Positions 28,285-63,105 of a stretch of DNA of 64,000 nt are shown here, piece after piece (position 1 is the stretch's first letter; each line of letters starts with the position of its first letter). Source of the DNA: the human T2T-CHM13v2.0 reference genome, Homo sapiens. The notes beneath the pieces were generated by a model. It made no database searches, was not told the DNA's origin, and was given only the letters and a program-made list of their open reading frames with translations. The stretch lies in the NCBI RefSeq assembly GCF_009914755.1, contig NC_060926.1; one strand, 5' to 3'. The position numbers were made by a program, and so were the translations under genes.

Positions 28285-29188
28285 CTTTGTGGTTTTATCT
28301 ACTTTTGGTCTTTGATGATGGTGATGTACAGATGGGTTTTTGGTGTGGATGTCCTTTCTATTTGTTAATTTTCCTTCTAACAGACAGGACCCTCCGCTGC
28401 AGGTCTGTTGGAATACCCTGCCGTGTGAGGTGTCAGTGTGCCCCTGCTGGGAGGTGCCTCCCTGTTAGGCTGCTCAGGGGTCAGGGGTCAGGGACCCACT
28501 TGAGGAGGCAGTCTGCCCGTTCTCAGATCTCCAGCTGTGTGCTGGGAGAACCACTGCTCTCTTCAAAGCTGTCAGACAGGGACATTTAAGTCTGCAGAGG
28601 TTAGTGCTGCTTTTTGTTTGTCTGTGCCCTTCCTCCAGAGATGGAGCCTACAGAGGCAGGCAGGCCTCCTTGAGCTGTGGTGGGCTCCACCCAGTTCGAG
28701 CTTCCAGGCTGCTTTGTTTACCTAAGCAAGCCTGGGCAATGGCGGGCGCCCCTCCCCCAGCCTCGCTGCCACCTTGCAGTTTGATCTCAGACTGCTGTGC
28801 TAGCAATCAGCGAGACTCCGTGGGCCTAGGACGCTCGGAGCCAGGTGCGGGGTATAATCTCGTGGTGCGCCGTTTTTTAAGCCGGTTGGAAAAGCGCAGT
28901 ATTCGGGTGGGAATGACCCGATTCTCCAGGTGCGTCCGTCACCCCTTTCTTTGACTAGGAAAGGGAACTCCCTGACCCCTTGCGCTTCCCAAGTGAGGCA
29001 ATGCCTTGCCCTGCTTCGTCTCGCACACGGTGCGCGCACCCACTGACCTGCGCCCACTGTCTGGCACTCCCTAGTTAGATGAACCCAGTACCTCAGATGG
29101 AAGTGCAGAAATCACCGTCTTCTGCGTGGCTCACGCTGGGAGCTGTAGACCGGAGCTGTTCCTATTCGGCCATCTTGGCTCCTGTCCC
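28285..29188. promoter_or_regulatory. L1PA2 5'UTR: CpG-rich bidirectional promoter with a YY1 site; the antisense promoter faces ALMS1 exon 10
   Basis: Intact YY1 motif CAAGATGGCC (reverse complement at ~29168-29177) and many retained CpGs. Sense and antisense promoter activity is established for this family. Confidence 0.65.
28739..28954 (+). CDS. L1 ORF0 (71 aa, antisense ORF of the L1 5'UTR), intact
   Basis: gcaATGg start context; MAGAPPPASLPPCSLISDCCASNQRDSVG...FSRCVRHPFL*. Splice donors CAG|gtgcgg after 28844 and CAG|gtgcgt after 28929. Expression is not demonstrated. Confidence 0.7.
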   Translation: MAGAPPPASLPPCSLISDCCASNQRDSVGLGRSEPGAGYNLVVRRFLSRLEKRSIRVGMTRFSRCVRHPFL

Positions 29189-29855
29189 TCTTTTGCCCAT
29201 TTTTTAATTGGATTGTCTTTTTTTTCCCTTTTTACTGTTGTGAATTGTATATATATGTTAGTATATATGTTAGATGTAAGGCTAGCAGATACAAGACCTT
29301 TGTTGGATATGAGGTTTGCAAATATTTTCTTGTAACCTGTAGCTGGGAGAGAGAGGGGCATTTTGTTTTGCTGGATAGTCTAGGTAGGCTTCGCTAGACT
29401 TTCACTGACGCCGCAAGGAAGGGATAGCACTTTATCAGCCAGCAGAGATGAAAGTAAGTCCTGGGTTCCTCACTTGGCCTTTGCTGGTGTTGGTGTGAGT
29501 GGGTCTAGTTTTTTCTGTGATGGTTGGCTGGAGTAGAATGGTTATTATTTAAAAGTTCTCTCTTTTGCTAGGCTTCACCTCTACTGGGTTTTTAGCTAGT
29601 GAGAAAAGCTCTTGTTAGGGTTTTTTGTCTGTGTCCATTGTTCCTGGGTAGCTGACTTCTTCAGCTCCAAGTCTGTATATGCAAGAGAAAAAGAAAACCC
29701 AGTGATTGCACCACAGCATAATTCCTCAGGTCCCTAGATCTCTAGCTAATCTACGTTCTTCTCTACATCTTTCAGATTCTTCTTACATTTGTTTTATATA
29801 TATTTTCCAGTGGGCTGAATTATAGTTAGCAGGAGAAATAGGGAAAAGTACATCT

Positions 29856-30160
29856 GGCCAGGCGCAGTGGCTCATGCCTGTAATCCCAGCACTTTGGGGA
29901 GGCTGAGGCAGGAGGATCCCTTGAATCCAGGAGTTGGAGACCAGCCTGGGCAACAAAGTGAGACCCAGTCTCTACAAAAATAAAAATAAGAAAATTAGCC
30001 CGGTGTAGTGGCATGTGCCTGTTGTCCCAGCTATCCAGGAGGCTGAGGTGGCAGGATCGCCTGAGCCTGGGAGGTCGTGGCTTCAGTGATAGTGCCACAG
30101 CATTCCAGCCTGGGTGACACAGCAAGACCCTGTCTTAAACAAAGAAGAAGAGAAAAGAAA
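29856..30160 (+). mobile_element. AluJ element
   Basis: GGCCAGGCGCAGTGGCTCA start, J-type gaggatcccttga and degenerate A tail; left TSD gaaaagtacatct at 29843-29855. Confidence 0.9.
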
Positions 30161-30166
30161 GAAAAA

Positions 30167-60727: not shown

Positions 60728-61046
60728 TTTTTTTTTCATTTTATTTTTATTTTTATTTTTTTGAAGACAGAGTTTTGCTCTTGTTGCCCAAGTTGGAGTG
60801 CAATGGCGCAATCTCGGTTCATTGCAACCCCTGCCCGCTGGGTTCAAGTGATTCTCCTGCCTCAGCCTCCTGAGTAGCTGGGATTACAGGCATGCACCAC
60901 CACGCCTGGCTAATTTTTGTATTATTAGTAGAGATGGGGTTTCACCATGTTGGCCAGGCTGGTCTCGAACTTTTGACCTCAGGTGATCCACCCACCTCAG
61001 CCTCCCAAAATACTGGGATTACAGGCGTGAGCCACCACGCCTGACC
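60728..61046 (-). mobile_element. AluSp/Sq element
   Basis: gagttttgctcttgttgccc diagnostic; full dimer. Confidence 0.92.
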
Positions 61047-62118
61047 TATTTTTTATTTTTAAACTTTTAGGTTCAGGGGGTACATGTTCCAATTTGTTCT
61101 ATAGGTAAACTTGTGTCATGGGGGTTTGTTTTACAGATTATGTCATCACCCAGGTACTAAGCGTGGTACCCAGTAGTTTTTTTTTTTTTTCTGTTTGTCT
61201 CCCCTGTCCCTCCACCCTCAAGTAGGCCCCAGTGTCTGTTGTTCCCCTCTTTGTGTCCATGAGTTCTCATCATTTAGCTCCCACTTATAAATGTGAGGAT
61301 GCAGTATTTGGTTTTCTGTTCCTGCATTAGTTTGCTAAGGATAATGACCTCCAGCTCCATCCATGTTCTGCAAAAGACATGATCTTGTTCTTTTATATGG
61401 CTGCATAGTATTCTATGGTGTAAGTGTACCACATTTTCTTTATCCAGTCTGTCATTTATGGGGCATTTAGGTTGATTCATGTCTTTGTTATTGTGAATAG
61501 TACTATAATGAACATTTGTGTGCACGTGTCTTTATGGTAGAATGACATATATTTCTTTGGGTATGTACACAGCAATGGATTGCTGAGTCAAATGGTGCAT
61601 CTGGTTTTAGCTCTATGAGGAATTGCCACACTGCTTTCTACAATGGTTGAACTAATTTACACTCCCACAAACAGTGTATAACCACTCCCTTTTCTCTGCA
61701 ACCTTGACAGCATCTGTTATATTTTGACTTTTTTATAACAGCCATTCTGATTGATGTGAAATGGTATCTCATTGTGGTTTTGATTTGCATTTATGTAATC
61801 AGTGATATTGAGCTTTTTTCATATGCGTGGTGGCTGCATATATATCTTCTTTTAAAAAGTGTCTGTCATGTCCTTTGCCCACTAAGTTCCTTGTAAATGC
61901 TGGATACTAGACCTTTATCAGATGCATAGTTTGCAAATATTTTCTTCCATTCTATAGGTTGTCTGTTTGCTCTGTTGATAATTTTTCTTTTGCTGTGCAG
62001 AAGCTCTTATGTTTAATTAGATCCCACTTGTCAGTTTTTGCTTTCGTTGCAATTGCTTTTGGTGTCTTCGTCGTGAAATTGCCTGTTTCTGTGTCTGGAA
62101 TGGTATTGTCTAGGTTGC
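61047..62118 (-). mobile_element. 5'-truncated older L1PA (PA13-16-like) 3' end
   Basis: 3'UTR and ORF2 C-terminus (WMELEVIILSKLMQEQKTKY). Confidence 0.85.
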
Positions 62119-62863
62119 ATATGTGGTATCCACATCATCACTGGTGATGTTAACTGATCACTTGGATAAGGCAGTGCTTGCTAGGTGTCTCCAAGATGGA
62201 AATAAGTTACTATTTCTTCCTTCTTATACTCTGTTTTTTGAAATCCAGTCACTTAGTTCAGTGCATACACAAAGGAGGAGGGGAAGGTTAAGCTTAACCT
62301 TCTTTGGTGGGAGGTATTCACATCTGTTATCTGGACTTCTTCTTAAAGCAAAATTTGCTTCTTCTTTCCAATTATTTATGTGTTCAATTATTTACTTGCT
62401 CCACTCTGTTTTAATATTAATTCCCTATGATCTCAAGATATAACTGCAACCTTGAAAACTCCTAGTTCTCCCAGAACTCCTTGACAGAATGCTCTGTTTC
62501 TTGTTTATCTTTGTACACTGTGTGTATTTAGCACAGTCCCCTAATTTATGGTGGACATCTAGTAATTTAAAAAAATGTATTTTCAATTCAGCTGAAAAAT
62601 AGCATTTCCTCAACTAAATTATATAATTTAACATTCTAAATTAAAAGTAGGTTTTAAGATAAAAGTAAACATGTGTGATAACATTGTATCAAACAAAATA
62701 AAGGGTACTGCTGAAATTTTACCTTAATAACGTTTGACATTGATGTGTCCACAATATATTCCTATAGCTACTTAAATATTCCTTGAAACCACTTTTGGAA
62801 AGAGATTTCAGTCTCTAATGGCCAAGGATATAATCTGCTGTATTCTTTCTCTTTTTTGGTCAG

Positions 62864-63105
62864 ATTACCAGAGAAGATGAAGACCCCACTTTCTGCTTTC
62901 TCTGAAAAATTGTCATCTGATGCAGTCACTCAGATAACAACAGAAAGTCCAGAAAAGACCCTATTTTCATCTGAGATTTTTATTAATGCTGAAGATCGTG
63001 GACATGAAATTATAGAGCCTGGTAACCAGAAGCTACGCAAAGCTCCTGTCAAGTTTGCCTCATCATCTTCAGTCCAACAGGTTACTTTTTCTCGCGGCAC
63101 AGATG
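62864..63105 (+). CDS. ALMS1: ALMS1 coding exon 11 (242 bp; starts in phase 2, ends in phase 1)
   Basis: Polypyrimidine tract and cAG acceptor ending at 62863; CG+A gives Arg, then LPEKMKTPLSAFSEKLSSD...FSRGTD, in frame with exon 10. Donor G|gtaaga starts at 63106. Confidence 0.95.

What the first reader, a model, noticed from the sequence alone, without database searches (positions are those of the whole stretch)
28739..63105. Intact L1 ORF0 points into ALMS1 and its second splice donor is in frame with exon 11
Seen: a complete 71-aa ORF0 (28739-28954) with a strong start context on the ALMS1 sense strand, and donors after ORF0 nt 106 (28844, phase 1) and nt 191 (28929, phase 2). Exon 11 starts in phase 2, so SD2 spliced to 62864 gives AG|A = Arg and reads ...MTRFS-R-LPEKMKTP..., joining 63 ORF0 residues to the ALMS1 C-terminal part. 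Established: L1 antisense promoters drive chimeric host transcripts, and ORF0 can fuse to downstream exons. Inference: a possible ape-specific short ALMS1 isoform that bypasses exons 8 and 10, where many truncating alleles lie. It requires skipping exon 10.
Basis: partly seen in the sequence, partly recalled or inferred. Interest (0 to 1): 0.75.

Follow-up and report, generated by a model that had tools for sequence, protein, structure and literature searches.

The report
Known L1 antisense promoter inside ALMS1
An old, dead L1 element in ALMS1 intron 9 carries an intact ORF0 and can start ALMS1 transcripts, but the published transcripts join exon 10 and lack the ORF0 start, so the proposed ORF0-exon 11 fusion has no support.

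Summary
The sequence observation is correct. A 71-codon ORF0 lies at 28739-28954 (+) with a strong start context. Its donors fall after 28844 (phase 1) and 28929 (phase 2), and exon 11 starts in phase 2, so 28929>62864 is in frame.

These features are ordinary. They are inherited by thousands of L1 copies. Two donors in phases 1 and 2 match two of the three possible acceptor phases.

The host element is a full-length, coding-dead L1PA2 (23141-29188, minus strand) with 15-bp target-site duplications.

Criscione et al. 2016 (PMC4908685, Tables S1 and S3) already list three spliced ESTs from one tongue-tumour library that start in this element. One uses donor 1 and two use donor 2. All three join exon 10, not exon 11. 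All three start 32-67 nt downstream of the ORF0 ATG. The L1 part of one EST matches this locus at 159 of 159 bases.

The real feature is therefore a catalogued L1 antisense-promoter/ALMS1 chimera. In the donor-1 form the first AUG is an in-frame ALMS1 Met in exon 10 (32744). That predicts a protein that bypasses exon 8 but not exon 10. The ORF0-exon 11 fusion is neither observed nor favoured.

The parts
23141..29188 (-). Full-length L1 (labelled L1PA2 in hg19 RepeatMasker as quoted by Criscione Table S1), antisense to ALMS1, in the intron upstream of the 1865-nt exon
   Evidence: The flanking 15-bp direct repeat occurs exactly twice in the window. The poly-A tail complement lies at the low end. 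The L1 5' end with the CAAGATGGCCG motif lies at the high end. ORF1 is cut to 224 aa and ORF2 is split into 547 and 702 aa. Identity to the best other genomic copies is 97-98% over 1221 nt of the 3' end. L1PA2 label.
23126..23140 (.). Target-site duplication, copy at the L1 3' end
   Evidence: the 15-mer is found at 23126 and 29189 only
29189..29203 (.). Target-site duplication, copy at the L1 5' end
28285..29188 (-). L1 5'UTR (904 nt) holding the sense and antisense promoters
   Evidence: The ORF1-like ORF starts at 28284. Length 904 nt, 33 CpG, CpG observed/expected 0.46.
28739..28954 (+). ORF0, 71 codons plus stop; ATG at L1 nt 450 counted without gaps from the 5' end
28771..28806 (+). 5' ends of the three published ESTs (28771, 28802, 28806; L1 nt 418, 387, 383): observed antisense-promoter start zone, downstream of the ORF0 ATG
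   Evidence: The EST sequences in PMC4908685 Table S3 were read against the window. The hg19 starts in Table S1 fit a single offset of 73684038.
28842..28850 (+). Donor 1, CAG|GTGCGG, last exon base 28844, phase 1; used by EST DA457502
28913..28915 (+). Internal ATG (ORF0 codon 59), specific to this locus. It is the first AUG of donor-2 transcripts that start downstream of 28739 and opens a 37-codon out-of-frame upstream ORF ending in exon 10.
   Evidence: The 6 in-frame readable relatives show Val at this codon, and the seventh (L002) is frame-shifted before it.
28927..28935 (+). Donor 2, CAG|GTGCGT, last exon base 28929, phase 2; used by ESTs DA453154 and DA459510
32723..34587 (+).
   Evidence: Hub annotation
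32744..32746 (+). First in-frame ALMS1 ATG of exon 10 (codon 8 of the exon, context GGAATGG). It is the first AUG of the donor-1 transcript and the start of the peptide predicted by Criscione et al.
62864..63105 (+). Next ALMS1 exon (exon 11), phase 2 at its start; in frame with donor 2 only if exon 10 is skipped. That junction has not been seen.

Best explanation
A full-length, coding-dead L1PA2 sits antisense in the ALMS1 intron before exon 10. Its 5'UTR antisense promoter works as a cryptic, normally silent internal promoter of ALMS1.

Shown:
- When the promoter fires, transcription starts around L1 nt 383-418 (window 28771-28806).
- The short L1 leader (43-159 nt) is spliced from either ORF0 donor (28844 or 28929) to the next acceptor, exon 10 at 32723.
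- These RNAs start inside ORF0, so they lack its ATG.

Inferred:
- The transcripts continue through the normal downstream exons.
- In the donor-1 form the first AUG is the in-frame ALMS1 Met at 32744, in a strong context. That form could give an N-terminally truncated ALMS1 holding roughly the last third of the protein (my estimate, not computed). It would bypass exons 1-9, including the large exon 8, but not exon 10.
- In the donor-2 form a locus-specific AUG at 28913 opens a 37-codon upstream ORF that overlaps 32744 and should damp translation of the ALMS1 frame.
- If a start upstream of 28739 occurs, ORF0 would run out of frame into exon 10 and end after 51 or 95 codons. Such an RNA would be expected to be a target of nonsense-mediated decay.
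- Activity is probably confined to hypomethylated states. The only evidence is one tumour library.

The in-frame relation of donor 2 with exon 11 is a coincidence of phases with no observed RNA behind it.
For: Anatomy: the target-site duplications, the element's length and its broken ORF1 and ORF2 are.

Table S3 prints their sequences.
- The L1 leader is followed directly by the first bases of exon 10, after donor 1 in 1 of 3 ESTs and after donor 2 in 2 of 3.
- The stated lengths of 569, 565 and 545 nt equal the L1 part plus the exon 10 part computed from the Table S1 ends. There is therefore no third block.

Locus identity: 159/159 identity to 28771-28929 against 149-152/159 for the 7 closest other copies. 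The best other copy of the 261-nt ORF0 stretch is 96% identical.

Criscione's own predicted peptide starts at the same Met and is open at the EST end.

Background, read as passages:
- L1PA2-8 antisense starts lie in the first 600 bp of the 5'UTR, and 92% of such chimeras are sense to the host gene and act as alternative starts.
- ORF0 has two donors able to join downstream exons.
- Young L1 promoters are methylated in most cell types, and intronic L1 methylation follows gene transcription.
Against: - All three ESTs come from one tumour library.
- Table S1 marks the chimera 'Detected in PacBIO RNA-seq: no'.
- ALMS1 is absent from the readable supplements of Lanciano 2024 (10 of 11 files searched, by gene name and by my own unverified hg38 coordinate guesses).
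- It is absent from the long-read CAGE paper PMC10760525 (3 files).
- In Pinson 2022 only 2 ALMS1P rows appear.
- EST 5' ends may be incomplete cDNAs, so starts upstream of the ORF0 ATG are not excluded. That the DA-series ESTs come from cap-selected libraries is my recollection, not a call result.
- The ESTs end inside exon 10, so nothing downstream of it was observed.
- No protein evidence of any kind was seen.
Confidence: 0.8

Rival explanations
1. Transcripts start upstream of 28739, ORF0 is translated from its own ATG, donor 2 skips exon 10 and joins exon 11. The product has 63 ORF0 residues, an Arg, and then the ALMS1 C-terminal part, bypassing exons 8 and 10.
For: The frame arithmetic is right, and the join reads through all of exon 11. 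ORF0 has a strong start context. ORF0 fusions to downstream exons are described for other loci (passages).
Against: - 0 of 3 ESTs contain the ORF0 ATG, and 3 of 3 use exon 10.
- Exon 10 has a good acceptor and donor and lies 3.8 kb away against 34 kb for exon 11.
- The frame match is expected for 2 of 3 acceptor phases.
- Skipping exon 10 (1865 nt, 2 mod 3) is not among the variants found when all ALMS1 exons were amplified in L-1236 cells. Only exons 2, 13 and 23 varied (abstract and passages of PMC5279758).
Confidence: 0.04
2. The antisense-promoter transcripts are translated into a functional N-terminally truncated ALMS1, starting at the exon 10 Met (32744) and ending with the ALMS motif. 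The protein is made in hypomethylated tissues and is able to modify the effect of truncating alleles in exons 1-9.
For: - In the donor-1 mRNA the first AUG is 32744, in frame, in the context GGAATGG.
- Criscione's predicted peptide is the same.
Against: - No protein, Ribo-seq or normal-tissue RNA evidence was seen.
- 2 of 3 ESTs carry the 28913 upstream ORF that overlaps this AUG.
- The review notes that ALMS1 staining was undetectable in fibroblasts of 14 of 16 patients.
- Expression evidence is limited to one tumour library.
Confidence: 0.12
3. The ESTs are not true starts. They would be 5'-truncated copies of ALMS1 pre-mRNA or of transcripts in which antisense L1 sequence is exonized from exon 9, so that the element has no promoter activity here.
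For: ESTs are partial by nature, and L1s carry cryptic splice sites on the antisense strand (passage). All three come from one library.
Against: - The three 5' ends cluster within 36 nt, inside the region where L1PA2-8 antisense starts map.
- EST DA453154 runs unbroken through the AG at 28778-28779, the only acceptor-like site nearby.
- Criscione removed loci with independent EST support for exonization and marks these ESTs as manually validated.
Confidence: 0.07

Closest known systems
L1 antisense-promoter chimeric transcripts (Speek 2001; Nigumann 2002; Criscione 2016), for example the L1PA2-BCAS3 chimera
   Same: The start lies in the antisense strand of a young L1 5'UTR. The transcript is spliced to the nearest downstream host exon, is sense to the host gene, and acts as an internal alternative start. 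This very locus is in Criscione's Table S1.
   Different: Nothing of kind differs. Support is thin (3 ESTs from one tumour library, not in their PacBio set), and the first AUG of one form happens to be an in-frame host Met.
ORF0-host exon fusion proteins (Denli et al. 2015; paper not held, known to me through passages)
   Same: Intact 71-codon ORF0 with both internal donors, and both donors are used here.
   Different: The observed RNAs start downstream of the ORF0 ATG. Both donors are out of frame with the exon they actually join. I could not check whether ALMS1 is among the 57 reported fusions.
Gene-breaking by intronic antisense L1 (Wheelan et al. 2005; seen only as a title in a reference list, content recalled)
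   Same: An antisense intronic L1 whose antisense promoter produces a transcript of the downstream exons only.
   Different: The upstream half, premature polyadenylation of the host transcript in the L1, was not examined here.

Membership tests
L1 ORF0 locus | Lies on the antisense strand of the 5'UTR of a primate L1PA8-L1HS element | tested here: met
   The ORF lies at L1 nt 450-235 of a full-length element labelled L1PA2
L1 ORF0 locus | Uninterrupted ORF of about 70 codons with a favourable start context | tested here: met
   71 aa, G at -3 and G at +4. The same ORF is present in 4 of 7 nearest copies.
L1 ORF0 locus | Two splice donors inside the ORF | tested here: met
   CAG|GT after 28844 and after 28929. 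Each is used in published ESTs.
L1 ORF0 locus | Transcripts that include the ORF0 ATG, and translation of ORF0 | tested here: not met
   0 of 3 ESTs reach the ATG. This is a small sample and EST ends may be incomplete. Translation is not testable here.
L1 antisense-promoter chimeric transcript | The RNA 5' end lies in the antisense strand of the L1 5'UTR | tested here: met
   Starts at 28771, 28802 and 28806. Whether they are capped is recalled, not shown.
L1 antisense-promoter chimeric transcript | Spliced to an annotated exon of a neighbouring gene, and attributable to one locus | tested here: met
   Junctions to 32723. 159/159 identity to this locus against at most 152/159 elsewhere.
   The only junctions seen go to exon 10, out of frame with both donors. 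28929>62864 is in frame on paper only.
   No junction database, CAGE, Ribo-seq or proteomics is on hand

The most novel reading that the evidence does not exclude
This L1PA2 is a lineage-restricted internal promoter of ALMS1. In hypomethylated cells (early embryo, germ line, placenta, some tumours) it would yield an ALMS1 protein that starts at the exon 10 Met and ends with the ALMS motif. Carriers of biallelic truncations in exons 1-9 would then not be complete nulls in those cells, and part of the unexplained phenotypic variability of Alstrom syndrome could trace to the state of this element. The rarer exon-10-skipped ORF0 fusion is a sub-case.
Probability: 0.08. Interest if true: 0.6.

Novelty: already known. 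Interest (0 to 1): 0.25.

Why it matters
As it stands, this is one entry among about a thousand catalogued L1 antisense-promoter chimeras, and the ORF0 anatomy is a family trait.

It would matter only if the promoter were active in normal tissues and the RNA were translated. ALMS1 truncations cluster in exon 8, which makes up 49% of the coding sequence and carries almost half of the variants (review passage). A transcript that starts after exon 9 would escape those alleles.

The ALMS1 field itself says that the range of transcripts and isoforms is unexplored. I found no main-text discussion of this L1-driven start in four full-text searches. It appears only in supplementary tables.

Tried and rejected
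Papers and notes that could not be reached:
- Denli 2015 is not held, so its list of 57 ORF0 fusions was not seen.
- Speek 2001 and Matlik 2006 are not held.

Source of Criscione's flag 'previously identified: yes':
- It was not resolved.
- The candidate sources are their references 7-9, 11-13 and 16, or C-GATE.
- The C-GATE paper has no ALMS1 in its text and no readable supplement.

Other L1-chimera data sets:
- Lanciano 2024: 0 hits for ALMS1 and 0 for six coordinate prefixes that I derived from a recalled hg19-hg38 offset. 10 of 11 files were searched.
- Pinson 2022: only ALMS1P.
- Adami 2025: supplements too large to read.
- PMC10760525: 0 hits in 3 files.
- PMC10506190: lists ALMS1 among 903 'L1 ASP-driven genes' but gives only gene-level expression, which says nothing about the chimera.
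- Braune 2017 on ALMS1 transcript variants: reports variation at exons 2, 13 and 23 only and does not mention this start.

Not attempted:
- A formal splice-site score, because no MaxEnt model is on hand. I used only consensus matches and pyrimidine counts.
- The size of the predicted protein, because the downstream exons lie outside the window and I had no reference protein. 'About the last third' is my estimate from recalled exon sizes.
- Presence of the element in other apes, because no primate genomes are available.
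Full report
**What is in the sequence**

The stretch 23141-29188 is one full-length L1 on the minus strand, antisense to ALMS1.
- It is bounded by a 15-bp direct repeat that occurs exactly twice in the window, at 23126 and 29189.
- It has the complement of a poly-A tail at its low end.
- It has the usual L1 5' end at its high end.
- Its 5'UTR is 904 nt long, with 33 CpG and a CpG observed/expected ratio of 0.46.
- Its coding capacity is lost. 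The ORF1-like frame is 224 aa, and ORF2 is split into frames of 547 and 702 aa.
- The hg19 RepeatMasker label quoted by Criscione et al. is L1PA2.
- The age looks consistent with that label. Over 1221 nt of the 3' end, the best other genomic copies are 97-98% identical. Over the CpG-rich ORF0 stretch they are 94-96% identical.

**The observation**

- ORF0 is 28739-28954 (+), 71 aa, with G at -3 and G at +4.
- The two donors are CAG|GTGCGG after 28844 (phase 1) and CAG|GTGCGT after 28929 (phase 2).
- Exon 10 (32723-34587, 1865 nt) is open only in frame 0.
- Exon 11 (62864-63105) is open only from its second base.
- Donor 2 joined to 62864 is therefore in frame. The junction codon is Arg, the same residue as in the native exon 10/11 junction.
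- The other three joins end early. Donor 1 to exon 11 gives 40 aa, donor 1 to exon 10 gives 51 aa, and donor 2 to exon 10 gives 95 aa.

**Is it more than chance?**

No.
- ORF0, its start context and its donors are inherited family traits. Of the 7 closest other copies fetched, 4 have the same 71-codon ORF with identical context and donors, and 3 are frame-shifted.
- The first look over the genome found 3945 candidate copies of the stretch.
- Published passages speak of roughly 3000-3200 ORF0 loci.
- Two donors in phases 1 and 2 are in frame with any acceptor of phase 1 or 2. A match with one of the next two exons is what one expects.

**What has already been seen at this locus**

Criscione et al. 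2016 (PMC4908685) list three spliced ESTs in Table S1: DA453154, DA457502 and DA459510.
- They are annotated as L1PA2(-) antisense-promoter transcripts of ALMS1(+), single alignment and manually validated.
- All come from tongue tumour tissue.

Table S3 prints the EST sequences. Read against the window:

| EST | Start | Donor used | Acceptor |
|---|---|---|---|
| DA453154 | 28771 | donor 2 (28929) | exon 10 (32723) |
| DA457502 | 28802 | donor 1 (28844) | exon 10 (32723) |
| DA459510 | 28806 | donor 2 (28929) | exon 10 (32723) |

- In each case the next bases after the donor are the first bases of exon 10.
- The hg19 starts fit one offset (window + 73684038).
- The stated lengths (569, 565 and 545 nt) equal the L1 part plus the exon 10 part computed from the Table S1 ends. 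The ESTs therefore have two blocks only and end inside exon 10.
- The 159-nt L1 part of DA453154 is identical to window 28771-28929. The 7 nearest other copies match at 149-152 of 159. The RNA therefore comes from this element.

The promoter half of the idea is right and already catalogued. The fusion half is not supported.
- All 3 of 3 ESTs include exon 10.
- All 3 of 3 begin 32-67 nt downstream of the ORF0 ATG. They cannot encode ORF0 from its start.
- Both donors are out of frame with the exon they actually join.
- Exon 10 has a good acceptor (15 of 20 pyrimidines, then TAG|G) and a good donor. It lies 3.8 kb from the donors, against 34 kb for exon 11.
- When all ALMS1 exons were amplified in a Hodgkin lymphoma cell line, only exons 2, 13 and 23 varied.

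**What the observed RNAs could encode (inference)**

- Donor-1 form: the L1 leader has no AUG. The first AUG is 32744, codon 8 of exon 10, in the ALMS1 frame, in the context GGAATGG. Criscione's predicted peptide starts at the same Met and is open at the EST end.
- Donor-2 form: the first AUG is 28913. This Met codon is specific to this locus. In one search the 6 relatives still in frame at that point have Val there. It opens a 37-codon out-of-frame upstream ORF that overlaps 32744.
- A protein starting at 32744 would lack exons 1-9, including exon 8, and keep exon 10 and the C-terminal ALMS motif. By my unverified estimate this is about the last third of ALMS1.
- A start upstream of 28739 would instead give ORF0 peptides of 51 or 95 aa ending early in exon 10. 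Such an RNA would be expected to be a target of nonsense-mediated decay.

**Limits**

- The RNA evidence is three clones from one tumour library.
- I found the chimera in no other readable data set.
- That the DA-series ESTs are cap-selected is recalled, so starts upstream of the ORF0 ATG are not excluded.
- No junction database, CAGE, Ribo-seq, methylation or primate genome data could be consulted.
- Four full-text searches found no paper that discusses an L1-driven ALMS1 start in its main text.

**Verdict**

- The real feature is a known kind of thing and this instance is already listed: an L1PA2 antisense-promoter/ALMS1 exon 10 chimera.
- The ORF0-exon 11 fusion is an arithmetic possibility without evidence. 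I put it at about 4%.
- The more defensible bold reading is an N-terminally truncated ALMS1 that starts in exon 10. It bypasses exon 8 but not exon 10, and it remains untested.

Noticed in passing
window 3527-3988 (-), within the repeat block of about 3500-9750: A second, largely full-length L1 lies in the same intron in the opposite orientation (sense to ALMS1). It has an ORF0-like frame on the minus strand that starts with the same residues but is frame-shifted and runs to 153 aa. Its antisense promoter points against ALMS1, towards ALMS1-IT1. A 35-mer of the ORF0 region is identical in both elements.
   Followed up: partly
window 28828-29188: The outer roughly 360 nt of the L1 5'UTR are not masked in the NCBI repeat list given with the finding, although they are plainly L1. 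This stretch holds both ORF0 donors and the second half of ORF0. Masked-sequence pipelines would see them as unique DNA.
   Followed up: no
window 28913-28915: ORF0 codon 59 is Met here. In one search it is Val in the 6 of the 7 nearest copies that are still in frame at that point. This locus-specific AUG becomes the first AUG of donor-2 transcripts that start downstream of the ORF0 ATG.
   Followed up: yes
window 28332-28589 (+) and 4292-4534 (-): Both L1s carry a further antisense ORF of 80-85 aa that begins with the same 9 residues. It spans the inner part of the 5'UTR up to the ORF1 start codon, upstream of the antisense start zone. It is probably a mechanical ORF shared by descent.
   Followed up: no
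window 29909-30428: The RefSeq 'enhancer' feature lies about 720 nt beyond the L1 5' end, inside the intron that the antisense-promoter transcripts remove. Whether it bears on the element's activity is unknown.
   Followed up: no
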